From assembly GCF_001618065.1 (NCBI RefSeq), contig NZ_LAEI01000041.1:196948-228947 (forward strand): a DNA stretch of 32,000 nucleotides, written 5' to 3'. A program made the translations under genes and the position numbers. Positions 3,085-28,582 of this stretch are shown here, in pieces; the stretch's first letter is position 1, and each line of letters begins with the position of its first letter. Origin of the DNA: Neisseria flavescens (GTDB lineage: Bacteria > Pseudomonadota > Gammaproteobacteria > Burkholderiales > Neisseriaceae). The notes beneath the pieces are model-generated. The model searched no databases, was not told the DNA's origin, and saw only the letters and a list, made by a program, of their open reading frames with translations.

Positions 3085-3122
3085 AAAGCCGATACATCAG
3101 GAAGGTGTATCGGCTTTTTTTC
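3085..3122 (+). terminator. Rho-independent terminator of glgP
   Basis: 12-bp stem AAAGCCGATACA / TGTATCGGCTTT with a 9-nt loop, followed by a T-run that merges into a DUS (TTCAGACGGC). Confidence 0.8.
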
Positions 3123-3196
3123 AGACGGCATGAAATAGAAAGGAGTAAAACAGTATGGTTGTATCGCTGTTTTAGGGTATTGCTAAATGACTCAAT

Positions 3197-4690
3197 TTAA
3201 AATCGGTATTTAAAATTTAGTAGCCATTCATTTTGATGGTAGCGGTAATGTGCTGTATTGCTATGGGAGATTGAGCGTCTAAAACGAAATTCAGGATACA
3301 CACCTTTAAGGTTCCACTGCGGAAAGCCTACAGCGGCTATCATGATGTATTGATTGTCGCGTCGCCGTCTGTTGTCGCTGACAAAACTTGCCGCGTCATA
3401 AAGACTGAGGCGGTGAAGCAGGATGGTATTGAGGTAAGTACCGCTTGAAAAAAAACTATATGCGCCCAGCCGTGTCGTATATTCCTTGCTGGAAGAAGAT
3501 TTTTCGGGATAAGCTTTGCGTGTTGCATCAAAGTTGGCGAACAGGCCGCTTTGGGGTGTGAGAGAAAATTCTGCCCCTACGCCCAGTTCGTATTGCTTAT
3601 AGTTGGCAAAATAATCTTTGTTTTGTCCACTATATCCGGTCTTTTTTGCTCCGGCATGTGAGTTAATACGCCAGCGTGGGGAGAGTGTGCGTGACCAGTT
3701 GACATCCGTGCCCCATGCGCGGTAGTGGGTGTGGCGGTTGCGGAAGTCGTATTCGAAATAGGGCAGCAGGGAAAAGGAGGAGCGTGCGTCGGCATAGGCG
3801 TATCCCGCGTAAAGCGAACCGTTGTGATAGCCGTAATCCGGCATGGCCGCCGAACTTTTGTCTTTTTCCGTGTAGCGGTTGCCGTACAGCACACCGCGCA
3901 CCTGTACACCGTGATGCCCTTTGAGCGGGATGGTTTTTTCGGAGGTCGCGCTATAGGATGAGAAGGTCGAATCCGTTGGTGCGGGCAGGGTGCGCTCCAT
4001 CAGGCACATGCCTGAGATTTCCCACACGCATTGGTTGATGCCGTTGCCTTGGTTTACATTGCTATTGTAGCCGTAGCCGAGGCTGATTTGGCCGTGCCAG
4101 CGGCGGCGTTTGCCCAGTTCGGACAGATAGTTTTCCACGATGGGGCGGGTTTCAGCAGGAATATCTGTTTTCAGAACTTTCTCAAACGCGGCGGCGGACT
4201 CTTTGTTTTGGTTGTCTTCGGCATAAAATCGCCCCGCTTCGAGCAGCAGGCGGGGGTTGTCGGGTTCGGCTTCCAAGGCCGTCTGAAAACTATTCCCCGC
4301 CGCGTGGAAATCCCCTTCGTCCCGTTTTTGCAGCGCATCGGCCAAATGAATCAGCGCGGGTTTGTGCCGGGGCAGTTTGGCGTAGCGGGCAGCGAACTGG
4401 CGCACCTTGTGCCACTGCCGCGCGTTGAGGGCGTGGTAAATCGCGCTTTCCAGTTCTTCCGCCGTATCGCCGACTTGATAGACTGTACCGTCTATCATGA
4501 TGTAGCCGTCGTTTTCCCCCACTTCACCGCGTGCCTGTTCCGTGTCCAGCCAGCCGCTTTCGCGGTATTGCTGCGTTTGGCGGCTGCCCTCGTCCAGCAG
4601 GCGGCGGCGTTCGTCTGCGGCATCGTCGGACGGGGCGGCAAGGCAGACCGTACAGAGCGGCAGGAAAAGCAGGCAGAGGCGGTGGTTCAT
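3197..4690 (-). CDS. Slam-family (surface lipoprotein assembly modifier, DUF560) outer-membrane translocon, 497 aa
   Basis: The likely start is M73 of the 569-aa track ORF (ATG 4690-4688, AAGGA about 10 nt upstream). It has a signal peptide MNHRLCLLFLPLCTVCLA, a TPR-like N-terminal region (..GDFHAAGNSFQTALEAEPDNPRLLLEAGRFYAED..) and a C-terminal beta-barrel region starting ..WHGQISLGYGYNSNVNQG... It ends ..LLNFKYRF with the terminal Phe typical of outer-membrane proteins. Confidence 0.85.
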   Translation of the reverse strand: MNHRLCLLFLPLCTVCLAAPSDDAADERRRLLDEGSRQTQQYRESGWLDTEQARGEVGENDGYIMIDGTVYQVGDTAEELESAIYHALNARQWHKVRQFAARYAKLPRHKPALIHLADALQKRDEGDFHAAGNSFQTALEAEPDNPRLLLEAGRFYAEDNQNKESAAAFEKVLKTDIPAETRPIVENYLSELGKRRRWHGQISLGYGYNSNVNQGNGINQCVWEISGMCLMERTLPAPTDSTFSSYSATSEKTIPLKGHHGVQVRGVLYGNRYTEKDKSSAAMPDYGYHNGSLYAGYAYADARSSFSLLPYFEYDFRNRHTHYRAWGTDVNWSRTLSPRWRINSHAGAKKTGYSGQNKDYFANYKQYELGVGAEFSLTPQSGLFANFDATRKAYPEKSSSSKEYTTRLGAYSFFSSGTYLNTILLHRLSLYDAASFVSDNRRRRDNQYIMIAAVGFPQWNLKGVYPEFRFRRSISHSNTAHYRYHQNEWLLNFKYRF

Positions 4691-4787
4691 GGGATGGGGT
4701 CCTTTGGGCGGGGAGGCCGTCTGAAAGAAGTAAAAACAGAAATTCCGCAAGGCAATGCAGGTTTGCACGGCACTTCGGAAACAAGTC

Positions 4788-4817
4788 AGCCGCAGTATAT
4801 TTATGCCTACTGCGGCT
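4788..4817 (-). promoter_or_regulatory. Intercistronic 10-bp perfect stem-loop between the secreted-protein gene and slam
   Basis: AGCCGCAGTA (4788-4797) pairs with TACTGCGGCT (4808-4817) around a 10-nt loop. It lies in the 218-nt gap between the stop at 4909 and the slam ATG at 4690. A DUS sits at 4714-4725. Confidence 0.4.
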
Positions 4818-4908
4818 TTTGTTAAAAAACGGCGGTTTTCCTGATTGCGGGAACGTACGGCCAAACGCCGAAAACACCGGCATTCCCTAATCGCGTAAGC
4901 GGGCAAGG

Positions 4909-5853
4909 TTATTTTTTCGCGCCGCCGAAGGCTACATCGTCGCCTTTGCCGTTGCCGCGTTCGGCATAGCCCGCCATAGCTGCCGCGCCATTGCCGTAGA
5001 ATTGGCCTTGGATTTTTTCATGATTACCCGCACCGCTTTTAAACGTACCAGCGGAGTTGGTAATTTCAACACCATTAAAGCTCAAATCCTTATCGCCTGC
5101 GCGTTTCAGCGCGCCGCTCATAGAACCTTTGTCGCCCGTACCGAATGTGGCTTTGATTTCACCGGTATAGAAATCGTTTTTGCCCGGCGTGTGCTTGTTG
5201 ATACCGACAACGTTATAGGTAGCCGCAGCCAAGTTTCTGGTGTTTTTGGTCGGATTCTCACCCACAAACCAAACCGTGCGGTTGCCGTCGTTCATATTCA
5301 AATCCGTGCTGTTGGCAATCTGATTGCTGTTGCCTTTGCGCGGCGCCCATTCGCCGAAGAAGACGTTGGTTGCCGCAGTCGGCACTTTGGCAAAAGTCAT
5401 GCCGCCGAATTTCGGCGCAATCGGTAATTTTGGGTCGGCCATTTGGCGTACGCTGAACACTTCGGTGTTGTTGGCGCGTTTTTCATACCACACTTGGGCG
5501 AGTTTGGTTTTCGAGAACCAGCCCGCAATCGGGTTGATGTCGCCGGGTTGCAGATATTTCGGATTGGCCGTGCCGTTTACATTGGCGTTCTGATTACCGC
5601 CGTTGATGGGCGCATTGCCGTATTTGTTGCGGATGCGCTGCGCGGGGCCGGCTTGGAGGTTGATGGATTTGGACAGGCCGTTGCCTGTGCTGACTTTGAT
5701 ACCGGCCGCACCTGCACCGAAGGGTAGAGAATCTGATGTTTTGGGTTCGATTAAGTTTGGATTGCTTGAACCACCTTCCACATTAGCCGCATGAGCAGCA
5801 GAGCCGAAGGCTGCGGTCAGAAGGACGGCGAGGGTTAATTGCGATGCTTTCAT
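4909..5853 (-). CDS. Secreted, non-lipidated TbpB-fold protein (hemophilin/HphA-like candidate Slam substrate), 314 aa
   Basis: It has a Sec type-I signal peptide MKASQLTLAVLLTAAFGSAAHA|ANV and no cysteine anywhere, so a lipobox is impossible. The C-terminus ..IQGQFYGNGAAAMAGYAERGNGKGDDVAFGGAKK matches the last strands of the TbpB/HpuA/fHbp/hemophilin 8-stranded barrel. AAGGA lies 8 nt before the ATG. The gene sits between a TonB-dependent receptor and Slam. Confidence 0.7.
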   Translation of the reverse strand: MKASQLTLAVLLTAAFGSAAHAANVEGGSSNPNLIEPKTSDSLPFGAGAAGIKVSTGNGLSKSINLQAGPAQRIRNKYGNAPINGGNQNANVNGTANPKYLQPGDINPIAGWFSKTKLAQVWYEKRANNTEVFSVRQMADPKLPIAPKFGGMTFAKVPTAATNVFFGEWAPRKGNSNQIANSTDLNMNDGNRTVWFVGENPTKNTRNLAAATYNVVGINKHTPGKNDFYTGEIKATFGTGDKGSMSGALKRAGDKDLSFNGVEITNSAGTFKSGAGNHEKIQGQFYGNGAAAMAGYAERGNGKGDDVAFGGAKK

Positions 5854-5983
5854 GATTTTTCCTTTAAAGAAAAATATGATGGATACCGCTGTTTTGTCTC
5901 GAGCGGCAAGGTGTATCGGGTGTTACCGATAGGGCGCATATTAATATAAATAAAAATATAAATCTAATTAAAACTCATTATCA

Positions 5984-6011
5984 AATATAAAGTGCGGATT
6001 GCATTTGTCAA
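5984..6011 (-). promoter_or_regulatory. Candidate sigma70 promoter for the 314-aa gene (TTGACA-N16-TATATT), with an adjacent Fur-like half site
   Basis: On the minus strand, TTGACA is at 6011-6006 and TATATT at 5989-5984. Immediately downstream is GATAATGAGTTTTAATTAG (5982-5964), which matches the 19-bp Fur consensus at about 11/19 with the first 8 positions perfect. Confidence 0.35.
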
Positions 6012-6081
6012 TATTTTATTTTTAATATCATTGCATTATCATCTAAGAAATACAAATATTATAGTAACGGTAACAGGCTGT

Positions 6082-6111
6082 AGCCGACGGGCAGATTCCT
6101 GCCCATCGGCT
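6082..6111 (-). terminator. Strong stem-loop 14 nt after the receptor stop codon
   Basis: 13-bp stem (AGCCGACGGGCAG / CTGCCCATCGGCT, with one G-U pair in the minus-strand RNA) and a 4-nt loop. There is no clean U-tract, so it may be a partial terminator or a processing/stability element. Confidence 0.45.
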
Positions 6112-6124
6112 GCATAGGATACAG

Positions 6125-9100
6125 TCAAGCCTTAAAACCTGCCCTTGATGCCGAAGGTAACCGTCCTGCCCGGGCCGGGACAGGGGTGCTGGACATCGGG
6201 TCTAGATAATAGCGGTTGGCGAGGTTGGTAACGCCGAAATTCAAGTCTATATGTTTCCCTATGCGGTAGCGGGCATAGGCATCAAGCAGGGTGGCGGCGT
6301 GCCAGCCGTAGGGTTTGCCGTTACGCTCATACACCTGCCCCGCGCCGTCGGCAATCAGCTTATCGTAGTTTTTCCGCTCCGCCTTGCTGTGGTGGATGGC
6401 GCGCATGCCCAATTCCAGTTTTTCGTTGAAGAAGCGCGTGCCTACATCAAGGGTAAGCGAATATTTGGGCTGCAGGGACTGGAAGAAGCGGCTGAGGCCG
6501 AAGCCGCCTTCAAGGCATTCGGGTACGCGTTGCAGGTAATAGTCGAATTTGAAGGCGATGCCCTTGTCGCATACCATATGTTTCAAACGGTAAGTGCCGC
6601 CGAAGGAGGCGAAGAAGCGACCATTGTCTAGGCGGATTTGCAGTTCTACCCCCTTGCTGATTGCCTTGTCGTATTGGATCATGCCGCCGTCCATATTCGA
6701 GGTGTCGATTTGGTTTTTGATTTTATTGCTGTAGTAGGTGAGGCGGAGGTCGCCTTGGCGCAGTTTGGCGAAATGCGGGGCGAAATTGAAATTGTAGCCT
6801 ACTTCCCAGTTGGTGCTTTTTTCCGGCTTCAGGCTGTATTCGGCCACGGTCTCGCTGCCGTACAGACCGCCGCTGCCGGTGGCGGCGGTCAGTTCGTAGA
6901 GGCTGGGAAAGCGGCTCATGCGGGCATAGCGGGCGAAGAGGCGGTGGTTGTCGGCAATATCGTAGCTGACCGACAGCATGGGCGACCAGGAATACGCGTG
7001 CTGCTCCTGCGGCATGCGCCAGCGTTCGGCTTCGCTGAATTGATGCCGGATCCAAGCGGTACGGTTTAGGTCGCTATTGAATTCCAGTGCTTGATCATTG
7101 CCGGTTTTTGATGGTAGTTGGTTTTCATTGGCCATACGGTCCGTTGTTTCGCTTACCGAACCGGGTGTTATGCCTATATGTGATCCGGGAATATAACGGC
7201 GGTAGCTGCCGCGTTTTCCTTGCGGGTTGTTTACTCTCTCGCGGTACATTTCCGGCGTAATTTGTACTTTGTCGGGGGCAAATTTTCCTGCATTCATTGG
7301 AATGATCTGTTTGCGGCGCAGTACATATAGTACATCGGTATTTTTATTGCCGTCCGCATACTGAACAAAATTTCCATCAGATTTGGCGTAAAACCGAGTA
7401 TCCTGACCAACGAGAGTATCATGCGGATCAAAATCGTAACCATTTTTTTCCTTAAAACGGCGGTTAAGGGCTTGATATTCTGCAACCTGACCCCCGATCC
7501 TATCGGGATCATAAAGCTGCAACATCCGCTGCTGGTTGGCAATATCTTCTTCATCCGCCAATTCAAAATACGGCATCATCAGGCCGGTAACATAGCTGTC
7601 CGAACCCAGGCCGTACTGATACCAGGGGTTGCGTGCGGCACGCTGCCGCGCCAGTTCGATATTGCGTCCTTTGAAGTTCTGATAGCGCACGCCCGCCTGT
7701 ATGTTCAGGCGGGAAGTCGGTTTCCAATCGAAGACCAGGTTCGCGCCCCATTCGCGCTTTTTCGCCGACTGCGGGCCGCCCAAGGCCGCCATGCGGGTCA
7801 GTACGCCGAAAGTATTCATCAAATCATTGCTGTCGGCGGTATCGGTGCGTTCTTCCAGCGTTTCGCGCTGGTAGTCGGCGGCAAGGGTGAGGCTGAGTTT
7901 GTCGGAAAGGCGGAAGCGGTTGCTGAGGTTGAAGCCGTTGCGGACGACGTCGGTACGCTGCCGCGCGCCGGGAACGATGATGCGGTCGGGATGTTCGATG
8001 TAGTAGCGTTCCTGATTCAGCTTTTGCTTCAGTTCGGCCAGATTCATCAGCTTGCCGATTTGGTTGGTCTGGTCGGTCAGCACATTTTTGTCGGCGGGCG
8101 TGATGGCGTAGTAGCCGCCCGTATGCCCCATCCAGCGGTCAGTAATCGCACGGTTGTTTTCATCGTGTTCTGCCAGCTTGCGGGCGATTTTGTCGGGCGT
8201 GTCTTCTATCATGCGCAGCACTTCTTCGTGGGTTCGCGCCGAGCCGTAGGTGTTCGACGCCATCGCGCTTTCGCAGCTTTCCCCCCGCAGGTTAGGCGAG
8301 GGCTGTTTGCGTATGTTGCACCAATACCAAAGGTCGTACTCATAGTCGGGCGTAATGACGCCGACGACGGGGCCGCCGCTCTGATGGCGGTTGCTGTCGG
8401 TCTTCACCCGCCACATATCGGCTTGAAGGTCTATCCATTTGTTGTTTTGCGGCTTCCATTCGTAGCCGATTTTGTAGGTTTTGCTGTCGATTTTCGTCCC
8501 TATCCCTGGTGCCTGCTGCGCAGGTTCGTCTAGGGATTGTTCGGCGAAACCGAGTATCCATGCCGTTATCAGGGGGTTGATTTCGCCGAAGCCGATTTTG
8601 TTGTCCATATATTGCAGGCTGATTTTTTGGTTGCCCGGCAGATACCAGTTGTTTTTCAGCAGCAGGGTTTTGGTGTCGGTGTGGCTGTTCATAATTTCTT
8701 CGCCCGGCCGGAACAGGACGGCCATATTCGGCACCAGGCTGGCGGAAGATTTGCAGAGCATGTCTTTTTCCCGCCATGATTTGTCAGGATACTGGTCGTA
8801 ACAGGCATCCGCACCGTAAATGGGGTTGTTGAGGTAGCTTTGATAGCCGCGTTTACCCGCGTAGTAGTTGCCCTTTTGGCGGTGGCTGTATGCGGCAAGG
8901 CCGTCTGTAATGTCGGTTTTGAAGGCGGCGGACAACATCAACTGCCTGTCGTCTTTGAAGTTGGTGTGGCTTTTGCCACCCGCATACTTCGTACCCGCTA
9001 TGCCTTCGTCCAACAACAGGGCGGTGGGGGAAGGTTTGCCGGTATAGCCGGTCAATACATCGGGCATACCCGATACCCCGTCCGCCGTTGCGCCTATAGG

Positions 9101-9757
9101 CGAGAGGGTGCGGTAGTCGCGGCCTAAGAATTGGCGCAAGTCGTTTTTCTGCGCCACGGTGTTGCCGGAAAACTCGGTTTTGACTTCGATTCCCCAGTTT
9201 TTGCCTTCGGGGATGATGTCGGCGGGTTCGATGGTACGGATGGACATCGCACCGCCCACGCCTGATTTCACGCCGCGCGTCATGGCGGGGCTTTTTTCCA
9301 CTGCGATGCTGCGGAACAGGGCGGGGTCGAGGTAGTTGCGGTCGCCCACACCGTAGTTGTTGAGCCAGACATCGACCGTCTGCTCCGTGCCGTCTAGTGT
9401 TACGGGGATACGGCCCTTGCCGGTGATGCCGCGTATATTGGGCGTAATCGCGCCGCCGGCGGTGCGGGTGTTCATGTTGTACACGCCGTTTAGGCCTTTG
9501 AGTACGTCGCCGGCGGATTGGACGCGGTAGCGTTCGAGGTATTCTTTGCCAACATAGGCGTTGGAGACGTTTTTGAATACACATCGTCCGCGCCTTTTTT
9601 GGTCGTTGGTACGTTTGCCACTGACAACAACGGTATCCAATTCTTGGTATTGTTCGGGTTGAGCTGAGGTTTCGATGACATTGGCAACGGTTAATGTGCT
9701 GAATGCGCTGGCAAGGCTGAGAATGATTATTTTGGGTTTGGGAGTAAAAGCAGACAT
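6125..9757 (-). CDS. Very large TonB-dependent outer-membrane receptor (1210 aa, TdfG-like size class); the 3' end appears frameshifted
   Basis: It has a signal peptide, a TonB-box-like ELDTVVVSG and plug-domain motifs (..NIRGITGKGRIPVTLDGTEQ.., ..IAVEKSPAMTRG..). Barrel-end motifs are ..IDLNFGVTNLANRYYLDP... The canonical end PGPGRTVTFGIKGRF-stop is present but in another frame (see findings). Confidence 0.88.
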   Translation of the reverse strand: MSAFTPKPKIIILSLASAFSTLTVANVIETSAQPEQYQELDTVVVSGKRTNDQKRRGRCVFKNVSNAYVGKEYLERYRVQSAGDVLKGLNGVYNMNTRTAGGAITPNIRGITGKGRIPVTLDGTEQTVDVWLNNYGVGDRNYLDPALFRSIAVEKSPAMTRGVKSGVGGAMSIRTIEPADIIPEGKNWGIEVKTEFSGNTVAQKNDLRQFLGRDYRTLSPIGATADGVSGMPDVLTGYTGKPSPTALLLDEGIAGTKYAGGKSHTNFKDDRQLMLSAAFKTDITDGLAAYSHRQKGNYYAGKRGYQSYLNNPIYGADACYDQYPDKSWREKDMLCKSSASLVPNMAVLFRPGEEIMNSHTDTKTLLLKNNWYLPGNQKISLQYMDNKIGFGEINPLITAWILGFAEQSLDEPAQQAPGIGTKIDSKTYKIGYEWKPQNNKWIDLQADMWRVKTDSNRHQSGGPVVGVITPDYEYDLWYWCNIRKQPSPNLRGESCESAMASNTYGSARTHEEVLRMIEDTPDKIARKLAEHDENNRAITDRWMGHTGGYYAITPADKNVLTDQTNQIGKLMNLAELKQKLNQERYYIEHPDRIIVPGARQRTDVVRNGFNLSNRFRLSDKLSLTLAADYQRETLEERTDTADSNDLMNTFGVLTRMAALGGPQSAKKREWGANLVFDWKPTSRLNIQAGVRYQNFKGRNIELARQRAARNPWYQYGLGSDSYVTGLMMPYFELADEEDIANQQRMLQLYDPDRIGGQVAEYQALNRRFKEKNGYDFDPHDTLVGQDTRFYAKSDGNFVQYADGNKNTDVLYVLRRKQIIPMNAGKFAPDKVQITPEMYRERVNNPQGKRGSYRRYIPGSHIGITPGSVSETTDRMANENQLPSKTGNDQALEFNSDLNRTAWIRHQFSEAERWRMPQEQHAYSWSPMLSVSYDIADNHRLFARYARMSRFPSLYELTAATGSGGLYGSETVAEYSLKPEKSTNWEVGYNFNFAPHFAKLRQGDLRLTYYSNKIKNQIDTSNMDGGMIQYDKAISKGVELQIRLDNGRFFASFGGTYRLKHMVCDKGIAFKFDYYLQRVPECLEGGFGLSRFFQSLQPKYSLTLDVGTRFFNEKLELGMRAIHHSKAERKNYDKLIADGAGQVYERNGKPYGWHAATLLDAYARYRIGKHIDLNFGVTNLANRYYLDPMSSTPVPARAGRLPSASRAGFKA

Positions 9758-9855
9758 AGTTTCTCTTTGTTAAGAACTTAATATAAGAGGTTAAAATACT
9801 CTTTTATATAAAAAATATAAAATTTTTAAATATTATTAATATTTATATAATAATT

Positions 9856-9874
9856 GATTATTCTTATCATTATT
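9856..9874 (-). promoter_or_regulatory. Candidate Fur box upstream of the receptor gene
   Basis: The minus-strand sequence AATAATGATAAGAATAATC matches the 19-bp consensus GATAATGATAATCATTATC at 15/19. It is embedded in an extremely AT-rich 190-nt leader (9758-9944). Confidence 0.55.
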
Positions 9875-9944: not shown

Positions 9945-9978
9945 AAAAGGCCGTCTGAAAACTTTCAGACGGCCTTTT
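9945..9978. terminator. Inverted DUS pair acting as a terminator (after ribB)
   Basis: AAAAGGCCGTCTGAAA / TTTCAGACGGCCTTTT form a perfect 16-bp stem, with A/T runs built into the arms. Confidence 0.75.
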
Positions 9979-23261: not shown

Positions 23262-24596
23262 TTAAAAAATTTGAAATAATTTTCTCTTCGAGTTCGATGT
23301 CTTTAATGTGTGTTTTTCCCTGTCTTGTGGGAATGCGGTTTCTTTCTCATCAAGCAAATCATCAAGTAATGTTTGCATGTTCAAATCATCAATTGCTTTT
23401 TGCTCTTCGTGTATATACTGAATCTTTTGTGTCTGATCTCTACAGTCGTATTGTTCAGGTTGTAAACCTTTGGGATAACCTTCAATGCCTTTTACAAGTT
23501 CATCGACAATTTTTGTATCATCCCAGCCTATATCGCGGAGGAAATTAACCATTTTTCCAACCTGATTACGCGCATGGAACAGTTTATGATCGAAAGATAA
23601 ATTTACTGTTTCTGTCTTGGCATCCATCCGCTTGGCTTCTGTTTTGAATATCGCCGTACATATCGGATAAGCACCGCCAAGATACGAACCGGAATAAAGC
23701 AAAACATCTAAGGGAATTTCTATATCGCCTGCCCGAAATTCAGTTTCAAACCTGACCCATGGACTGTTGACATCGCCAAATTGTTTTCCTTTCTCATAAA
23801 CGCGAGTGAATTTTGAATTGCCGCGTTTACCTACATAAAAGGTTTTGCCGCTACCATCATCATTGCGCCATGCAGTACCTCTACATTCGCTTTTTGGCCT
23901 CATGTTATGAACGTCAAAATGACCGTTATCATGATCAAGTAATGCCTGATCGGGTGTGTATTCGCCGTTAAAGAAATCATGGGCGACGTCAACACGGGTA
24001 ATTTTTGGACGTATGCACTTACTTAAAAACTCATACAGTCGGTTTTCCCAACCGGGTATAGCAGCCTGACAACCTGTACCATTCAATTCAACCAACATTG
24101 TTTCACGCTGACCGCCGTAATGAACCTTGCCATATTCGACGTTATCCGGACCAAGTTGGTAACAGCTTTTATAGAAAAACTTGCCTTTAAACGGTAGTTT
24201 TTGGGTAATGCCAAAACCTAAAATTTCTTCTAAAAGCTCGCTATACTTCACAACAAATTCTGTATCTGAAACCAATCCTTTGCCTGTTACTTTCGGTAAA
24301 CTGTCTTCGTGAATCGTGAAAGTGATTTGGTCAATAAATGCGCCGTCATCCCTGCCACGTCTTAAAGGTATTTCGATGAATTTGCCTTTTCCATCGGATA
24401 CGAAATGGCTGAAATATTCAAACTCAAAGTCTTGGTTATCCGATTTTTCCGCACCCTTCGGATTAGGGGTTTTATTTTGCTCCCCCCCTATTAGCCTAGG
24501 GGGGCAGCCTTCGGCGGTTGTCGCAGCCTTGCCGTCCGCTGGCGCGGCCGCCATGTCTGCGCCTACCGCCACGGCTTTATATTCCAAGGCTTTCAC
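23262..24596 (-). CDS. Rolling-circle replication initiator (Rep_trans / RstA / gene II family)
   Basis: ..ITRVDVAHDFFNG.., ..FYVGKRGNSKFTRVYEKGKQ.. and ..WVRFETEFR.. are typical of filamentous-phage replication initiators. The GTG start at 24596 has AAGGA 9 nt upstream. An alternative ATG is at 24554. Confidence 0.87.
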   Translation of the reverse strand: MKALEYKAVAVGADMAAAPADGKAATTAEGCPPRLIGGEQNKTPNPKGAEKSDNQDFEFEYFSHFVSDGKGKFIEIPLRRGRDDGAFIDQITFTIHEDSLPKVTGKGLVSDTEFVVKYSELLEEILGFGITQKLPFKGKFFYKSCYQLGPDNVEYGKVHYGGQRETMLVELNGTGCQAAIPGWENRLYEFLSKCIRPKITRVDVAHDFFNGEYTPDQALLDHDNGHFDVHNMRPKSECRGTAWRNDDGSGKTFYVGKRGNSKFTRVYEKGKQFGDVNSPWVRFETEFRAGDIEIPLDVLLYSGSYLGGAYPICTAIFKTEAKRMDAKTETVNLSFDHKLFHARNQVGKMVNFLRDIGWDDTKIVDELVKGIEGYPKGLQPEQYDCRDQTQKIQYIHEEQKAIDDLNMQTLLDDLLDEKETAFPQDREKHTLKTSNSKRKLFQIF

Positions 24597-24807
24597 GGTT
24601 GCATTCCTTATCCATCAATTCTTTTACAAACAATCTGCCGCATTCATACGCTTCGTTTTCGGTTTTTTGTTTCAAAGTCGGATTGCGGATAGGGAAACAA
24701 ACTGTTTTGATGCATTGGGATTCGTTGTCTTTATCCCTGAACACTTTCAAGATGTATGCTTTCGGGAAAGATAAGGGTTCGGGATTGACGGTATAGAAAA
24801 TAAACAT
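24577..24807 (-). CDS. Hypothetical 76-aa first ORF of the phage module
   Basis: ATG at 24807 with GAAGGGG 8-9 nt upstream. It overlaps the Rep GTG start by 20 nt. I recognise no family. Confidence 0.3.
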   Translation of the reverse strand: MFIFYTVNPEPLSFPKAYILKVFRDKDNESQCIKTVCFPIRNPTLKQKTENEAYECGRLFVKELMDKECNRESLGI

Positions 24808-25004: not shown

Positions 25005-26234
25005 CTAGCGTTCGCTCAACGCTTGTTTCATACGAGTAATCGGTTTGATCAGGTATTGGAAGATGGTTTTTTCACCGGTTTTGATGTCCACCGTTGCAAC
25101 CATGCCCGGAATAATCGGCATAGGTTTGCCGTTTTTGTCTTTCAGGGAGTTGTTTTCGGTTTGGACGAGAACACGGTAATAGACTTGGTTCGGGTCGAGT
25201 TTCAGGTCGTTGGCACGGTTTTGCATGGAGTTGCTGACGGTATCGGCACCAACGAGGGTAACTTTGCCTTCCAAACCGCCGTAGATGGAGTAGTCGTAGG
25301 CGCTGACTTTAACCAATGCAGGTTGGCCTGCGCGGATAAAGGCGATGTCTTGCGGACGGATATAGGCTTCGACCAGCAGTTTGTCGTCAACCGGGACGAT
25401 TTGCATGATGTCTTCGCCTGCGTTCACAACGCCGCCGATGGTGGTGACTTTTATGCCTTTGACGATGCCGCGCATAGGCGCGCGGATTTGCGAGCGTTCA
25501 ACCGGGTCGGCACGCATGGCAACGTTTTCTTTGGATTGCGCCAGCTCAGATTCGGCTTGCAAGAGTTCGTTGTTGGCATCGGCTTTGTAGCGGTTGCGGC
25601 GTTCGGAGATTTGGGTGGCCAAATCTGCAGAATCACGGCGCATTCTTAAAAGTTCGACTTCGGAAACCACGCCTTCGGCAACCATAGGTGCGGTAATGGC
25701 GATTTCGCGGTCAAGCGCGGCCTTGCTTTGGGAGAGGCCGCTGACGGCGTCGGTCATGGCTTGACGGCGTGCTTTGTAGGCGGCGATTTCGCGACGGCGA
25801 AGCTCAGGGCCCACGCTGTCAGGGAAGGAGAGCTTGGTGCCGTAGGCCTCGGCTTTAAGTCGGGCAACGGTGGCTTCGAGGTTTTCGACTTTGGCTTCGC
25901 TTTCTCGTAAAACGGCGGAGCTGCGCGTGTCGTCGAGTTTCATCAGAATCTGATCTTTCTCGACCATGTCGCCTTCTTTAACCATGATTTCGGTTACGAT
26001 GCCGGGGTCGAGGCTTTGGATGACTTGCTCACGGCTGCTGGGAATGATATTGCCGTTGCCGCGGGTCACTTCTTCGACAGGACTGTTGTATGCCCAGACG
26101 ACGAAGACAACCAGGAAAAGGAAGAATAGGATGATGACCCAAAATTGGCCGCTGTGTTTTTCTTTTTGAAGGGCGGCATTGAGGTCGTTGATGAGGTGTA
26201 GGTCTTTGGATTTGACGTTGTTTTCGCGGCTCAT
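25005..26234 (-). CDS. HlyD-family type I secretion membrane-fusion protein
   Basis: 409 aa with a single N-terminal transmembrane segment (FWVIILFFLFLVVFVVWAY). It has a long coiled-coil middle and a C-terminal barrel-sandwich segment (..GMVATVDIKTGEKTIFQYLIKP..). Confidence 0.92.
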   Translation of the reverse strand: MSRENNVKSKDLHLINDLNAALQKEKHSGQFWVIILFFLFLVVFVVWAYNSPVEEVTRGNGNIIPSSREQVIQSLDPGIVTEIMVKEGDMVEKDQILMKLDDTRSSAVLRESEAKVENLEATVARLKAEAYGTKLSFPDSVGPELRRREIAAYKARRQAMTDAVSGLSQSKAALDREIAITAPMVAEGVVSEVELLRMRRDSADLATQISERRNRYKADANNELLQAESELAQSKENVAMRADPVERSQIRAPMRGIVKGIKVTTIGGVVNAGEDIMQIVPVDDKLLVEAYIRPQDIAFIRAGQPALVKVSAYDYSIYGGLEGKVTLVGADTVSNSMQNRANDLKLDPNQVYYRVLVQTENNSLKDKNGKPMPIIPGMVATVDIKTGEKTIFQYLIKPITRMKQALSER

Positions 26235-26279
26235 AATCGTGTATCTTTATTGTGTTTGGTGGATTTTAACCATTAGGGC

Positions 26280-26316
26280 AGGCCGTCTGAAAGAGTAAGT
26301 AGGTTTCAGACGGCCT
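26280..26316. repeat. Inverted DUS pair inside the T1SS operon (between the ABC and MFP genes)
   Basis: AGGCCGTCTGAAA / TTTCAGACGGCCT with an 11-nt loop. The T-run is on the plus strand only, so read-through on the coding (minus) strand is plausible. Confidence 0.7.
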
Positions 26317-26322
26317 TTTGCT

Positions 26323-28539
26323 TTATTGTGCTGCTGATTGAGGGGCGGCGGCAGCTTGTTGTTGCTGCTGTTTGACTGCAGCAGCTTGTTGCTGTTGTTG
26401 TTTGACGTTGGCTGCTTTGGCCTGTTCGTTTTGCATGAGTTTTTGCAATACCAAGTCACGCGGGCCGTCCATCACGACTTTACCATTGTCCATCACAATG
26501 ATGCGGTTGACGATTTGCAGCACTTGCGGACGGTGCGTCACCAAAAGCATGGTGCGGTTGCGGCCCCATTGTGCAATGGCATTGAGCGCCATACGCTCAG
26601 TGGCTTGGTCCAGGCTGGTGGTCGGCTCGTCCAGCAAGACGACTTTCGGGTTGCGCAAGGTCATGCGCGCCAAGGCGATGATTTGTTTTTGACCGCCGGA
26701 CAAGCCCAAACCGTCTTCACCCAGAGGCATATCCAAACCACGCGGATGGTTGCGGATGATTTTGTCGAGGCCGAAGCGGTTGAGCGCAGTCAGTAAGTCT
26801 TGGTCGGTAGAGTAACTGCCGGTACGCGCCAAGTCCATATTTTCACGTAATGTACCAAGGAACAGGCGTGGCGATTGGCTTAACAGCAGAACTTGATCGC
26901 GCAGGAAGTTGGGATCCAGCTGGCGCATATCGACGCCGTCAAGGGTAACGTTGCCTTTTTCAGTGTCGTACAGACCGCTGGCCAGTTTGAGCATGGTACT
27001 TTTACCGCTGCCGATACGGCCCAAAATACCGACTTTTTCGCCCGGTTTGATGGTTAGGCGCAAATCTTCGACGGCGCTGTTGTTGTCGGCTTGATATTTG
27101 AACGATACGTTTTCAAAGGTAATACTGCCTTGAACATTGTCCAAAGTAATGTATTTGCGTTCCGGATTGCGCTCTATAGGGCGGGTAACGATGTCGTTTA
27201 CGCCTTTGAGGGCAAGTTTGGCCTGTTGGAAGCGGGTGGCCAAACCGGCGATTTGTGCCAATGGCGCCAAGGCGCGGCCGGACAGAATCACGGAGGCAAT
27301 CAATGCACCCATGGTGATGCGTTCTGCATGGTTGTCGGCGTGAATCAAATAGGTACCGACAACGACCAAGAAGACGGTATTGAGCTGCTGCATAGCAACG
27401 GCGAAGTTGACCATGAAGTTGCTGGTGTCTTTGACTTTGATGGAAGAAGCGGAAGTTTTGGCGGTGTATTCATCCCAACGTTGTTGCGCCCAAGATGTGG
27501 CGTTGTTGGTTTTCAGGGTTTCGATGCCTTCGATGGCTTCAACGGCAAGGCCGGAGCGTTGCGAACCTTCTTTCATCGATTCGTTGATGTGGCGAGAGAG
27601 CGGGCGTTGTACGACAAAACCGACAATCACGACAATCGGAATGATGGTCAGGGGAACAAGTGCCAGTTTGCCGCCGACCATGGAAATCACGAAGATAAAC
27701 AGCAACAGGAAAGGCAAGTCGACAATAGTCAACAAGCTGGCACTGGTCATAAACTCGCGCACGGCTTCAAATTCGCGCAGGTTGCTGGCGTATGAACCGG
27801 AAGAAGCTGGACGGTCTGCCAGACGTAATGCCATCACGCGGCGGAACAGGGCGGAGCTGATGATCAGGTCGGCTTTTTTGCCGGCAATATCGGTCAAATG
27901 ACCGCGAATCATCTTGGCGGCAAACTCAAACAAAATTGCCAAGACCACGCCGATGCTCAAAACCCACAAGGTTTCATAGGCTTGGTTGGGAATCACGCGG
28001 TCGTACACGTTCATCACATACAGGGAGCTGACGAGTGCAAGGAAGTTGATGATGATGGTGGCCAAGATGACTTGGTAGTAGTAGCTGCGGAAACGCCAAA
28101 TGACTTTCCAAAACCATGCTTTGGGCAAATGGTATTCAGGCAGCTCCGAGCGCATATCGGTAGCCATTTTTGGTTTGATAAACCAGCAGTAGCCCAAATA
28201 CAGGCCGGAGAGCTGCTCATGACTGAGTTCTTGTTCCAAACCGTCAACCTGGCGGATATGGTATTTGCGCTCTTGTCCTGAGCCTTCGATTTGGGTGATG
28301 ACCGCAGCTTCTTCGTTGTGCAGGATAATCATGACCGGCACGGCAAGCGAGGGGATGTCTTCCAGATTGCGTTTGGATAAGGTGTTTTCAAAGCCGTGGC
28401 TGCGCAGGACTTCGACCAGCGAGTGATAGTTGACCTTGAGCTTTTTGTCGCGCACGACTTCGGCGGACAAAGCGGCTTCGGATACGGGCGCACCCAAAAG
28501 GCGGGTCACTAAAACAATGTGTTCAATGATGGCTTTCAT
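26323..28539 (-). CDS. Type I secretion ABC transporter (permease/ATPase) with an N-terminal C39-like domain lacking the catalytic Cys
   Basis: 738 aa. Motifs are Walker A GRIGSGKST, signature LSGGQKQ, Walker B VVLLDEPT and H-loop LLVTHR. There are six transmembrane segments. The roughly 130-aa N-terminal domain resembles a peptidase-C39 fold but has no N-terminal cysteine (HlyB/LssB type). Confidence 0.93.
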   Translation of the reverse strand: MKAIIEHIVLVTRLLGAPVSEAALSAEVVRDKKLKVNYHSLVEVLRSHGFENTLSKRNLEDIPSLAVPVMIILHNEEAAVITQIEGSGQERKYHIRQVDGLEQELSHEQLSGLYLGYCWFIKPKMATDMRSELPEYHLPKAWFWKVIWRFRSYYYQVILATIIINFLALVSSLYVMNVYDRVIPNQAYETLWVLSIGVVLAILFEFAAKMIRGHLTDIAGKKADLIISSALFRRVMALRLADRPASSGSYASNLREFEAVREFMTSASLLTIVDLPFLLLFIFVISMVGGKLALVPLTIIPIVVIVGFVVQRPLSRHINESMKEGSQRSGLAVEAIEGIETLKTNNATSWAQQRWDEYTAKTSASSIKVKDTSNFMVNFAVAMQQLNTVFLVVVGTYLIHADNHAERITMGALIASVILSGRALAPLAQIAGLATRFQQAKLALKGVNDIVTRPIERNPERKYITLDNVQGSITFENVSFKYQADNNSAVEDLRLTIKPGEKVGILGRIGSGKSTMLKLASGLYDTEKGNVTLDGVDMRQLDPNFLRDQVLLLSQSPRLFLGTLRENMDLARTGSYSTDQDLLTALNRFGLDKIIRNHPRGLDMPLGEDGLGLSGGQKQIIALARMTLRNPKVVLLDEPTTSLDQATERMALNAIAQWGRNRTMLLVTHRPQVLQIVNRIIVMDNGKVVMDGPRDLVLQKLMQNEQAKAANVKQQQQQAAAVKQQQQQAAAAPQSAAQ
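26348..26407 (-). repeat. 2 x 30-nt imperfect tandem repeat (25/30 identical) encoding a VKQQQQQAAA x2 tail
   Basis: Units 26348-26377 and 26378-26407 were compared base by base. They lie in the last roughly 30 codons of the ABC transporter. Confidence 0.8.
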
Positions 28540-28582
28540 ATTTTTTCGCGTAATGTTTTTGGTTTAACCGGCGGATATGGCT

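What the first reader, a model, noticed from the sequence alone, without database searches (positions are those of the whole stretch)
3197..9874. Fur-box-fronted module of a giant TonB-dependent receptor, a Cys-free TbpB-fold secreted protein and Slam: a candidate Slam-dependent hemophore-type uptake system
Three co-oriented minus-strand genes form a self-contained outer-membrane acquisition module.

(i) The first gene is a 1210-aa TonB-dependent receptor. Its AT-rich leader carries a 15/19 Fur-box match at 9856-9874.

(ii) The second gene encodes a 314-aa protein whose C-terminus (..GQFYGNGAAAMAGYAER....DVAFGGAKK) has the signature of the 8-stranded barrel shared by TbpB lobes, HpuA, fHbp and hemophilin. 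It has a type-I (AHA|A) signal peptide and contains no cysteine at all, so it cannot be a lipoprotein.

(iii) The third gene encodes a DUF560/Slam translocon with a TPR N-domain.

From established knowledge, Slams export TbpB-fold surface lipoproteins in Neisseria. In Acinetobacter, a Slam exports the soluble hemophilin-like hemophore HphA, which hands heme to a partner TonB-dependent receptor.

A non-lipidated substrate paired with a receptor of this size class is not one of the classical neisserial systems (TbpAB, LbpAB, HpuAB). The size recalls the roughly 136-kDa orphan gonococcal TdfG, whose ligand is, to my knowledge, unknown. The ligand here cannot be read from the sequence. The mature protein has only two His residues.
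Basis: partly seen in the sequence, partly recalled or inferred. Interest (0 to 1): 0.85.

Follow-up and report, generated by a model that had tools for sequence, protein, structure and literature searches.

The report
Commensal Neisseria TdfG–hemophilin–Slam uptake module
This is the commensal-Neisseria copy of the gonococcal tdfG–ngo0554–ngo0555 locus, an iron-repressed set of a giant outer-membrane receptor, a secreted hemophilin-like protein and its Slam exporter; the locus type is already in the literature, but what it captures is still unknown.

Summary
Three co-oriented minus-strand genes encode a roughly 1,208-aa TonB-dependent receptor, a Cys-free 314-aa protein with a signal-peptidase-I signal, and a 497-aa Slam (TPR plus DUF560). 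A 15/19 Fur-box match lies at 9856-9874.

The module is orthologous to gonococcal tdfG (NGO0553)–ngo0554–ngo0555:
- gene sizes and gene order match;
- NCBI names a 91%-identical N. subflava protein TdfG;
- a published ngo0554 Fur box matches exactly at 5966-5986.

Grossman et al. 2021 already called that locus a T11SS/Slam hemophilin-like system. The 314-aa protein models confidently (pLDDT 88.5), and its eight best PDB matches are all HphA/hemophilin structures.

- The secreted-protein gene has its own promoter carrying Fur boxes.
- The receptor barrel and the secreted protein form a co-varying hypervariable cassette next to a conserved slam.
- The receptor profile is closest to HasR but lacks both HasR heme-ligating histidines.
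- The N-domain of this secreted-protein allele has no histidine.
- The receptor ORF carries three 1-nt indels, one of which removes the C-terminal β-strand.

The ligand is unresolved. Heme is plausible but unproven.

The parts
9856..9874 (-). Fur-box-like 19-mer AATAATGATAAGAATAATC in the 21%-GC leader of the receptor gene
   Evidence: 15/19 to GATAATGATAATCATTATC. Best match in the window. P about 0.015 against shuffles of the leader. Unchanged in three and with one substitution in the fourth of four commensal loci, whichever receptor allele follows, although the whole leader is conserved there.
6125..9757 (-). TdfG-type giant TonB-dependent receptor gene. The ORF as read is 1210 aa; the native frame gives 1208 aa ending in TAA at 6132-6134. 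A TonB-box-like ELDTVVVSG lies at residues 39-47.
   Evidence: Plug and barrel Pfam hits. 99% identical to P0211 and 91% to N. subflava 'TonB-dependent receptor TdfG'. The family profile's best PDB relative is HasR at 2.9e-23, followed by PhuR and ShuA.
9576..9600 (-). Compensated frameshift (+A in an A-run near 9600, -A near 9576) that garbles receptor residues 55-61 (RRGRCVF instead of GADDVYY)
   Evidence: Alignments to four homologous loci and to the 98%-identical contig L038.
6177..6179 (-). 1-nt deletion in a C-run (C3 instead of C4), 17 codons from the end. It replaces the last β-strand and terminal Phe of the receptor.
   Evidence: All 23 homologues in A5 end ...PGPGRT[VIF][TS][FLV]G[LIFM]xxxF. 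In the restored frame the window reads FGIKGRF-TAA exactly.
6082..6111 (-). 13-bp GC-rich hairpin just after the receptor stop, with no T-tract. Possible attenuator or transcript-stabilising stem between receptor and hemophore genes.
   Evidence: RNA fold -28.2 kcal/mol, z = -4.65, 0 of 200 shuffles fold as well.
6044..6064 (-). Distal Fur box of the hemophore-gene promoter region
   Evidence: 2 mismatches to the published FA1090 ngo0554 motif CTATGATATTTGTATTTATTA. No match expected by chance.
5984..6011 (-). Strong sigma-70-like promoter TTGACA-16-TATATT for the hemophore gene. A second candidate, TTGATA-18-TATATT, lies at 5984-5955.
   Evidence: 11/12 consensus match, the best in the region.
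5966..5986 (+). Proximal Fur box, overlapping the -10 element and downstream promoter of the hemophore gene
   Evidence: Exact 21/21 match to the published ngo0554 Fur motif AATTAAAACTCATTATCAAAT. Conserved in L005 and in the gonococcal locus L037.
4909..5853 (-). Cys-free secreted hemophilin-family protein of 314 aa. Signal peptide is residues 1-22, N-terminal handle domain about 23-175, eight-stranded barrel about 190-314.
   Evidence: NF041636 at 102.7 bits. phmmer hits to hemophilin chains. AF2 pLDDT 88.5 and Foldseek top eight all HphA/hemophilin. Published ngo0554 qPCR primers match at 5142-5163 and 5067-5089 with 2 mismatches each.
3197..4690 (-). Slam / type 11 secretion outer-membrane protein of 497 aa, with an N-terminal TPR domain and a DUF560 barrel
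   Evidence: SlipAM 2.7e-30 and TPR_Slam 9e-15. 89% identical to the Slam of gonococcal tdfG loci. Same length as NGO0555.
3085..3131 (-). DUS (3120-3131) followed by a 12-bp hairpin with a T-run. Likely terminator of the module, shared with convergent glgP.
   Evidence: Fold -18 kcal/mol, z = -5.1. DUS match.
9945..9978 (+). Inverted DUS pair forming a 15-bp hairpin. It terminates upstream ribBA and marks the upstream boundary of the module.
   Evidence: Terminator scan. DUS matches at 9950-9959 and 9964-9973.

Best explanation
The region is the commensal (N. subflava/flavescens-group) orthologue of the gonococcal tdfG–ngo0554–ngo0555 locus. It is an iron/Fur-repressed, Slam (type 11 secretion)-dependent capture-and-import system of the hemophilin/HphA kind.

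Inferred sequence of events:
1. Under iron limitation Fur leaves the boxes in two promoter regions. One precedes the receptor gene. A stronger one precedes the 314-aa gene, from which slam is probably read through.
2. The 314-aa protein is exported by Sec and cleaved by signal peptidase I after AHA. Having no cysteine, it cannot be lipidated.
3. The dedicated Slam recognises its C-terminal eight-stranded barrel and passes it across the outer membrane. It is released, or at most loosely held.
4. Its N-terminal handle domain captures a ligand, most likely heme or a related iron-bearing molecule.
5. It docks on the very large extracellular loops of its cognate TdfG receptor, which imports the ligand using TonB.

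Receptor barrel and secreted protein co-vary as one exchangeable cassette, whereas slam is conserved. This suggests specificity lies in the receptor–carrier pair and that Slam recognises the conserved barrel.

Shown here: gene content, folds, orthology, conserved Fur motifs and the cassette structure. Inferred: secretion, release, iron regulation in this species, docking, and the identity of the ligand. The confidence given is for the architecture and general mechanism; for heme as the ligand it is a little under 0.5.
For: - Families and folds.
- Orthology with the gonococcal locus: identical three-gene order in gonococcal L037 and L009. The NCBI name TdfG is given to a 91%-identical protein. 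FA1090 coordinates give 3621, 951 and 1494 nt. ngo0554 primers match the window gene.
- Regulation: a 15/19 Fur box precedes the receptor. There is an exact match to a published ngo0554 Fur box and a 19/21 match to the second. An 11/12 promoter overlaps them. In gonococci ngo0554 is Fur- and iron-repressed and ngo0555 is co-induced without a Fur box of its own.
- Not a lipoprotein: no Cys in the window protein. In 64 homologues the only Cys lies inside the signal peptide's hydrophobic core (LLCG; Leu at -1 is not a lipobox).
- Receptor lineage: the TdfG profile's best solved relatives are the hemophore receptor HasR (2.9e-23), PhuR and ShuA. TIGR01785 heme-receptor family scores 5e-62.
- Cognate pairing: TBDR and hemophore identity matrices correlate at r = 0.94, against 0.58-0.66 with Slam. 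The variable block runs from about 9250 to 4700, between conserved flanks.
- All three genes are under purifying selection, with dN/dS 0.14-0.45.
- Literature: Slam-dependent secretion of non-lipidated HphA/HrpC homologues has been shown experimentally in other genera.
Against: [quoted passage not shown]
- All five solved HphA/hemophilin proteins ligate heme through His in the N-domain. The window protein has no His between residues 23 and 175. The only partly conserved candidate position (73) is Arg here, against His in 40, Tyr in 10 and Arg in 13 of 64 homologues.
- Both HasR heme ligands are missing from the TdfG family. His189 aligns to Val, and the segment between the FRAP-like and NPNL-like motifs has no His.
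- TIGR01785 (210 bits against a cut-off of 316) and Pfam HphA_N (20.5 against 22) are both below threshold.
- No heme oxygenase or heme-utilisation gene lies nearby.
- In gonococcal RNA-seq tdfG itself did not respond to the stimulus that derepressed ngo0554 and ngo0555.
- In this window the receptor ORF lacks its C-terminal strand. If that sequence is correct, import may not work in this strain.
Confidence: 0.72

Rival explanations
1. The machinery is the same, but the ligand is not heme. On this view the TdfG/NGO0554-type pair is a branch of the hemophilin family that has changed specificity. The new ligand could be another metal complex, a different tetrapyrrole, or a host or microbial molecule. 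The precedent is Xenorhabdus CrpC, which has the hemophilin fold but does not bind heme.
For: - The N-domain of this allele has no His, and no His is invariant in the N-domain across 64 homologues.
- The receptor lacks the equivalents of both HasR heme-ligating His.
- The N-domain has no detectable sequence relatives outside this narrow family among 1.84 billion representatives.
- There is a published precedent for a non-heme-binding hemophilin homologue that lacks the His ligands.
- No heme-utilisation genes are linked.
Against: - Position 73 is His or Tyr, both classical heme ligands, in 50 of 64 homologues.
- Invariant or near-invariant Tyr, Trp, Arg, Lys and Gln residues (Y100, W122, Y123, R136, Q137, K148) would suit a porphyrin pocket.
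- The closest receptor relatives are all heme or hemophore receptors.
- Fur control points to iron.
Confidence: 0.3
2. The 314-aa protein is not released. It stays on the cell surface as a co-receptor bound to TdfG, working like TbpB or HpuA but without a lipid anchor. It may capture a host protein that the receptor's very large loops then strip of iron.
For: - NCBI files the family under 'Slam-dependent surface lipoprotein'.
- By the HasR profile alignment, the receptor has about 345 more residues than HasR's plug-and-barrel in two blocks between aligned segments. That size class is seen in host-protein receptors such as TbpA.
- HpuA and TbpB are the next structural neighbours.
Against: - There is no Cys and hence no anchor.
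- The structural match to soluble HphA/hemophilin (E about 1e-12) is far better than to HpuA (1e-5) or TbpB (1e-4).
- Non-lipidated homologues are released into the medium in other genera.
Confidence: 0.12
3. In this particular strain the module is decaying or switched off. The receptor gene carries real frameshifts, so the secreted protein, if made, acts alone. It might sequester a nutrient from competitors, as H. haemolyticus hemophilin does to NTHi, or it might do nothing.
For: - There are three 1-nt indels in the receptor gene against about five substitutions relative to contig L038 across 6500-9500. No frame-disrupting indels occur in ribBA, slam, the 314-aa gene or glgP.
- The last strand and terminal Phe of the barrel are lost.
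- A gonococcal genome (L037) also has a fragmented tdfG.
- Hemophilin-mediated competition is documented (PMC10964412).
Against: - All three indels sit in or beside homopolymer runs, and the downstream native frame is intact to the codon. This is what sequencing error looks like.
- Two of the three indels compensate each other.
- dN/dS values indicate purifying selection on the gene across the family.
Confidence: 0.25

Closest known systems
Neisseria gonorrhoeae tdfG (NGO0553) – ngo0554 – ngo0555 locus
   Same: - Same three genes in the same order with matching sizes: 1206/316/497 aa in FA1090 against 1208/314/497 here.
- Receptor 70.5% and Slam 89% identical to one gonococcal allele.
- One published ngo0554 Fur box is identical and the other differs at 2 of 21 positions.
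- Deep allele classes exist at one chromosomal site, like gonococcal tdfG1 and tdfG2.
   Different: - The chromosomal neighbours differ: ribBA and glgP here, EamA-family and aspartate ammonia-lyase genes in the gonococcus.
- The host is an oral commensal. A 2022 review called TdfG exclusive to the gonococcus and N. elongata.
- This copy has frameshifts in the receptor.
HphA–HphR–HsmA of Acinetobacter baumannii; hemophilin (Hpl) of Haemophilus haemolyticus; HrpC/HrpB of Xenorhabdus
   Same: [quoted passage not shown]
- Adjacent Slam/T11SS and TonB-dependent receptor genes.
- These are the best structural matches in the PDB.
   Different: - The carrier is about 40-75 residues longer than the solved HphA chains (292 mature residues against 218-255).
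- Its N-domain is unrelated in sequence and lacks the His heme ligands.
- The receptor is about 1,200 aa.
- No linked heme oxygenase gene.
- Pfam HphA_N and HphA_C are matched only weakly and by a minority of the family.
HasA–HasR hemophore system (Serratia, Pseudomonas)
   Same: A secreted carrier hands its ligand to a dedicated TonB-dependent receptor. HasR is the closest solved relative of the TdfG profile.
   Different: - HasA has a different fold and is exported by a type I system.
- The profile alignment begins at HasR residue 99, so about 98 N-terminal HasR residues have no TdfG counterpart; from general knowledge this is HasR's signalling extension.
- TdfG lacks the equivalents of His189 and His603.
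- By the profile alignment TdfG has about 345 more residues in two barrel blocks.
Neisserial bipartite receptors TbpAB, LbpAB and HpuAB with Slam1/Slam2
   Same: Slam-dependent partner protein with the same barrel fold, paired with a Fur-regulated TonB-dependent receptor.
   Different: - The partner here has a single lobe and no lipid anchor.
- Gene order is receptor first, with a dedicated Slam adjacent.
- No known host-protein ligand.

Membership tests
Slam / type 11 secretion system outer-membrane protein (DUF560) | C-terminal DUF560 (SlipAM) β-barrel domain | tested here: met
   PF04575 at 2.7e-30, covering residues 198-497 against profile positions 1-288 of 288.
Slam / type 11 secretion system outer-membrane protein (DUF560) | N-terminal periplasmic TPR domain of the Slam type | tested here: met
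   PF24575 TPR_Slam at 9e-15, 55.4 bits against a cut-off of 35.2.
Slam / type 11 secretion system outer-membrane protein (DUF560) | Adjacent cargo gene with a TbpB-type eight-stranded barrel | tested here: met
   The 314-aa gene lies 218 nt upstream on the same strand. NF041636 is above its cut-off, and the barrel is modelled at pLDDT above 90.
Slam / type 11 secretion system outer-membrane protein (DUF560) | Required for translocation of the cargo across the outer membrane | not testable with these tools
   Needs a secretion assay with and without slam.
Hemophilin / HphA family of Slam-dependent hemophores | C-terminal eight-stranded β-barrel plus N-terminal β-handle domain, with overall fold similarity to solved HphAs | tested here: met
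   Foldseek top eight hits are HphA/hemophilin, with E 2.7e-13 to 3.6e-11, alignments of about 305 columns and target TM 0.64-0.75. phmmer gives 8gm3 at 9.4e-8 and 6om5 at 8.5e-7 over residues 149-314.
Hemophilin / HphA family of Slam-dependent hemophores | Sec signal cleaved by signal peptidase I, with no lipobox cysteine | tested here: met
   AHA|A site and zero Cys.
Hemophilin / HphA family of Slam-dependent hemophores | Gene cluster with a Slam (HsmA) and a TonB-dependent receptor (HphR) | tested here: met
   Three adjacent co-oriented genes. The same arrangement is seen in 17 related loci from Neisseria, Eikenella and Alcaligenaceae that hold all three genes.
Hemophilin / HphA family of Slam-dependent hemophores | Sequence membership of the Pfam HphA_N heme-binding domain | tested here: not met
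   PF22828 scores 20.5 bits against a cut-off of 22, and only over profile positions 79-104. 22 of 64 relatives match weakly. The N-domain alone finds only its own family among 1.84e9 representatives.
Hemophilin / HphA family of Slam-dependent hemophores | His axial ligand(s) for heme iron in N-domain loops | tested here: not met
   No His in residues 23-175 of the window protein. Position 73 is Arg here, against H 40, Y 10, R 13 and F 1 among 64 homologues. All five solved HphAs use His.
Hemophilin / HphA family of Slam-dependent hemophores | Binds heme and delivers it to the cognate receptor | not testable with these tools
   Needs spectroscopy and growth assays.
TdfG (gonococcal NGO0553) orthologous group | TonB-dependent receptor of about 1,200 aa (136 kDa) with high full-length identity | tested here: met
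   70.5% identity over residues 1-1195 to gonococcal L037. 91% to the N. subflava protein that NCBI names TdfG. 45-46% to the other gonococcal allele class.
TdfG (gonococcal NGO0553) orthologous group | Followed by ngo0554-like and ngo0555-like genes | tested here: met
   The gonococcal locus is described in the same terms.
TdfG (gonococcal NGO0553) orthologous group | Iron/Fur-repressed expression | tested here: inconclusive
   Motifs are present: 15/19 upstream of the receptor, and an exact plus a 19/21 match to the published ngo0554 boxes. Expression could not be measured. The gonococcal literature on tdfG itself is mixed.
Heme/hemophore TonB-dependent receptors (TIGR01785; HasR, PhuR, ShuA) | Score above the curated family threshold | tested here: not met
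   TIGR01785 scores 210.3 bits against a cut-off of 316.85. TIGR01786 scores 176 against 323.75.
Heme/hemophore TonB-dependent receptors (TIGR01785; HasR, PhuR, ShuA) | Conserved heme-ligating His in the plug apex and in the loop between the FRAP and NPNL motifs | tested here: not met
   HasR His189 aligns to Val (NNYGVGDRN). HasR His603 falls in the segment RFPSLYELTAATGSGGLYGSETVAEYSLKPE, which contains no His. The same holds for the 24-sequence profile.
Slam-dependent surface lipoproteins (TbpB, LbpB, HpuA, fHbp; the NCBI product name) | Lipobox with an invariant Cys at +1 for acylation | tested here: not met
   No Cys in the window protein. In relatives the only Cys sits mid-signal-peptide in LLCG, with Leu at -1. 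The database name 'lipoprotein' does not fit this subfamily.

The most novel reading that the evidence does not exclude
TdfG/NGO0554-type pairs may be a distinct branch of the hemophilin systems in which neither partner uses the canonical histidine heme ligands, so they would capture something other than His-ligated heme. Receptor barrel and carrier would evolve as strain-specific lock-and-key cassettes. These cassettes are ancient (dS about 1), are shared between commensal Neisseria, Eikenella and the gonococcus, and are swapped by recombination next to a conserved, allele-blind Slam. This would be analogous to the pyoverdine/FpvA types, which restrict piracy of a secreted public good.
Probability: 0.25. 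Interest if true: 0.7.

Novelty: already known. Interest (0 to 1): 0.35.

Why it matters
TdfG is the largest gonococcal TonB-dependent transporter. It is still listed as having no known ligand or function roughly 25 years after its discovery.

The evidence here points to a concrete experiment: treat NGO0554-type proteins as the secreted partner of TdfG and test binding, secretion and uptake. Orthology is clear. The carrier has a confident hemophilin fold. Receptor and carrier co-vary tightly, and the carrier gene has its own Fur-boxed promoter.

Two further observations matter for vaccine or target thinking about TdfG and Slam. Both partners lack the canonical heme-ligating histidines. The receptor–carrier block is a hypervariable cassette shared with oral commensals. 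So the ligand may not be ordinary heme, the receptor and carrier are antigenically diverse and exchangeable, and only Slam is conserved.

For this window itself the finding is an orthologue of a locus already described and already named in databases.

Tried and rejected
- AlphaFold model of the receptor (24-sequence alignment): mean pLDDT 51.9, pTM 0.51, and the plug modelled below 30. It is too poor to use, so no fold search was run on it. The location of the extra length was estimated from the HasR profile alignment instead.
- The N-domain search of 1.84e9 representatives returned one non-family hit, a 2,223-aa S-layer protein with Ig/FN3 repeats (E 7.7e-7). BLASTP shows 26-28% identity over N/G/T-rich repeats. 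I rejected it as compositional similarity.
- E. coli Fur consensus scan of the hemophore-gene leader: best match only 12/19, no better than shuffles. The Fur boxes there were recognised only by matching the published gonococcal motifs.
- No solved Slam structure matches by sequence; only designed TPR proteins hit.
- The supplements of the two hemophilin survey preprints held no entry for the gonococcal accession or for these species, so I could not place the family in their clusters.
- Rfam and tRNA scans of the window found nothing.
- The ngo0554 primers do not match gonococcal loci L009 or L037 (at least 4-6 mismatches). Neither locus is therefore the FA1090 allele, and gonococci appear to hold at least three variants.
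- I considered a lipoprotein reading for relatives with Cys14 and rejected it. The Cys lies in LLCG inside the hydrophobic core and is followed by an AxA site.

Full report
**1. The observation**

The window is Neisseria DNA. It contains 28 copies of the 10-nt DNA uptake sequence against 0.04 expected. The flanking genes are 99-100% identical at protein level to N. subflava/flavescens-group genomes.

Three co-oriented minus-strand ORFs are present as described:
- a TonB-dependent receptor at 6125-9757, with Plug and barrel domains;
- a 314-aa ORF at 4909-5853;
- a 497-aa Slam at 3197-4690, with SlipAM at 2.7e-30 and TPR_Slam at 9e-15.

The 314-aa protein has a type-I signal (…GSAAHA|ANV) and no cysteine. 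Only two His occur in the mature chain.

The 15/19 Fur-box match at 9856-9874 is real. It is the best match in the whole window. Only 1.5% of shuffles of the AT-rich leader reach it.

**2. What the proteins are**

The 314-aa protein passes the NCBIfam threshold for the Slam-cargo barrel family (102.7 bits against 80). By sequence it matches two hemophilin/HphA chains over residues 149-314.

With a 64-sequence alignment, AlphaFold gives pLDDT 88.5 and pTM 0.87. The model has an N-terminal β-rich handle with helices (about residues 23-175) and an eight-stranded barrel. Foldseek against the PDB returns the eight HphA/hemophilin entries first (E 2.7e-13 to 3.6e-11, target TM 0.64-0.75). HpuA (1e-5), TbpB/LbpB (about 1e-4) and fHbp follow.

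For the receptor, a profile of 24 relatives finds HasR as the closest solved protein (2.9e-23), then PhuR and ShuA.

**3. It is the TdfG locus**

Several lines show this is the orthologue of gonococcal tdfG–ngo0554–ngo0555:
- A 91%-identical N. subflava protein is named 'TonB-dependent receptor TdfG' by NCBI.
- A complete gonococcal genome carries receptor, 316-aa protein and Slam in the same order. Identities are 70.5%, 64% and 89%.
- The supplementary tables of a 2026 gonococcal study list NGO0553 tdfG (3621 nt), NGO0554 (951 nt, 'Slam-dependent surface lipoprotein') and NGO0555 (1494 nt) side by side.
- The two Fur motifs that study reports upstream of ngo0554 occur in the window. One matches exactly at 5966-5986 and the other has two mismatches at 6044-6064.
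- The published ngo0554 qPCR primers match the window gene with two mismatches each.

**4. Prior knowledge**

Grossman et al. (bioRxiv 2020.01.20.912956; mBio 2021, PMC8406197) already described NGO0553-0555 as a conserved Hrp/hemophilin-like T11SS locus. They noted that NGO0554 is iron-repressed and peroxide-induced.

Slam-dependent secretion of non-lipidated HphA homologues next to a Slam and a TBDR is established in several genera. A survey counted 197 Neisseriales homologues in its permissive set and 38 in its strict set.

The gonococcal transporter literature nevertheless still lists TdfG as having no known ligand or function. One review restricts it to the gonococcus and N. elongata.

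**5. Transcription units**

The hemophore gene has its own promoter region:
- a GC-rich hairpin follows the receptor stop (z = -4.65);
- then comes an AT-rich stretch with an 11/12 sigma-70 match, TTGACA-16-TATATT, at 6011-5984;
- the two Fur motifs noted above lie in this stretch: the proximal one (5966-5986) overlaps the -10 element and the downstream promoter, and the distal one (6044-6064) lies about 30 nt upstream of the -35.

This matches the gonococcal data. There ngo0554 is among the most strongly derepressed genes. ngo0555 follows it without a Fur box of its own, and tdfG did not respond.

**6. A hypervariable receptor–carrier cassette**

I aligned the window with loci that share the same ribBA and glgP flanks, and with gonococcal loci.
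- The flanks, the leader and about the first 400 nt of the receptor gene are 90-100% identical in the loci that share the ribBA and glgP flanks; in the gonococcal loci the start of the receptor gene rises to about 90%, and slam is 94-96% identical over most of its length in all of them.
- From about 9250 to 4700 identity drops to 45-70% between allele classes. This block covers the receptor barrel, the intergenic region and the carrier gene. Smaller mosaic blocks lie inside it.

Synonymous divergence is about 1 between allele classes, against 0.12-0.37 for slam. Whole-gene dN/dS is 0.14-0.45 for all three genes.

Pairwise identity matrices for receptor and carrier correlate at r = 0.94, against 0.58-0.66 with Slam. 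One allele class in N. flavescens is 81-89% identical to Eikenella receptors, although the Slams are only 59% identical.

This mirrors the gonococcal tdfG1 and tdfG2 clades, which share 59% nucleotide identity with the same synteny. It suggests cognate receptor–carrier specificity and a Slam that recognises the conserved barrel.

**7. The ligand**

Heme is the default by analogy, but several expected features are absent.
- All five solved HphAs ligate heme with His in N-domain loops.
- The window protein has no His in residues 23-175. Its N-domain has no sequence relatives outside this family among 1.84 billion representatives.
- Position 73 is Arg in this allele class, against His in 40, Tyr in 10 and Arg in 13 of 64 relatives.
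- In the receptor, HasR His189 aligns to Val. The segment corresponding to HasR His603 contains no His.
- A heme-non-binding hemophilin homologue that lacks the His ligands has been described.

Other features would suit a porphyrin pocket. Y100, W122, Y123, R136, Q137, K148, the invariant S40/P44-F45-G46 loop, and H221 in the barrel are all invariant or near-invariant.

I put heme at a little under even odds.

**8. Integrity of the receptor gene**

Relative to a 98%-identical metagenomic contig, the window has three 1-nt indels in the receptor gene:
- +A near 9600 and -A near 9576, which compensate each other and garble residues 55-61;
- -C at 6177-6180.

The last indel replaces the final β-strand and terminal Phe, which are invariant in 23 homologues. 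In the restored frame the window reads FGIKGRF-stop exactly.

All three indels sit at homopolymer runs, so sequencing error is likely. However, no frame-disrupting indels occur in the neighbouring genes. A gonococcal genome also has a fragmented tdfG. Real inactivation therefore cannot be excluded.

**9. The receptor's extra length**

The AlphaFold model was too poor to use (pLDDT 52).

The profile alignment to HasR leaves about 83 more residues than HasR between the aligned plug and first barrel segment, and about 260 more between the mid-barrel aligned segments (profile positions 448-846). The alignment begins at HasR residue 99, so about 98 N-terminal HasR residues have no counterpart in the TdfG profile.

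**10. Verdict**

The system is already described for the gonococcal orthologue and is already named in databases.

Residual interest lies in three points: the unresolved ligand, the missing canonical heme ligands in both partners, and the co-varying cassette shared among commensals, Eikenella and the gonococcus.

Noticed in passing
window 9576-9600 and 6177-6180: There are three single-base indels in the receptor gene relative to a 98%-identical contig (L038). Two compensate each other and garble residues 55-61. The third removes the C-terminal β-strand and terminal Phe. This could be sequencing error at homopolymers or recent inactivation.
   Followed up: partly
window about 4700-9250, compared with L001, L005, L009, L012, L021 and L037: The receptor barrel, the intergenic region and the hemophore gene form a mosaic hypervariable cassette. 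Identity between allele classes is 45-70% nt and dS is about 1. The flanks and slam are 90-100% identical in the commensal loci, and slam is 94-96% identical even to the gonococcus. Receptor and hemophore divergence correlate at r = 0.94. One allele class is shared with Eikenella.
   Followed up: partly
L037 4892-8719 (N. gonorrhoeae CP061490.1): In this gonococcal genome the tdfG homologue is called only as fragments of 142 and 337 aa, and the longest matching ORF is 386 aa. It appears to be a pseudogene, while the 316-aa gene and slam are intact.
   Followed up: no
homologues P0088, P0118, P0188 and others; L009 7980-8945: The second allele class, including a gonococcal one, has a Cys at position 12-16 in LLCG inside the signal peptide's hydrophobic core, followed by an AxA site. 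It resembles a lipobox but has Leu at -1. The database name 'Slam-dependent surface lipoprotein' is probably a misnomer for the whole subfamily.
   Followed up: partly
window 5866: There is a 2-nt (TA) indel relative to L038, 13 nt upstream of the hemophore start codon, in the run next to the AAAGGA ribosome-binding site.
   Followed up: no
window 17400-24700: This low-GC block (32-43%) is a filamentous prophage of the Neisseria Nf/MDA type. It carries an IS110-family transposase (17464-18420), Zot (18718-19875), TspB (20169-21701), several small ORFs and a Rep_trans replication initiator (23262-24596).
   Followed up: partly
window 15584-17328: An RtcB RNA ligase gene overlaps the start of a gene for an RF-1-domain protein (PrfH-like). 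This is the rtcB–prfH ribosome/RNA repair pair.
   Followed up: no
window 25005-29851: Three co-oriented minus-strand genes encode a HlyD-family adaptor, a 738-aa ABC exporter and a TolC-like outer-membrane factor. This is a type I secretion or efflux set. Its substrate was not examined.
   Followed up: no
L022-L035, for example L024 7182-10295 (N. sicca, N. lactamica, N. meningitidis and others): This is a different two-gene Slam module. A 457-aa protein has proline-rich repeats, and its last 195 residues are 46% identical to the window protein's C-terminal part. It is followed by a Slam that is 47% identical. The module lies downstream of aspS, with no TdfG-like receptor adjacent.
   Followed up: partly
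window 9945-9978, 3120-3131 and 26 other sites: There are 28 exact copies of the DNA uptake sequence GCCGTCTGAA in 32 kb. Many are inverted pairs that double as terminators between genes. Two lie inside the module, at 4278 within slam and 4716 in the slam leader.
   Followed up: no
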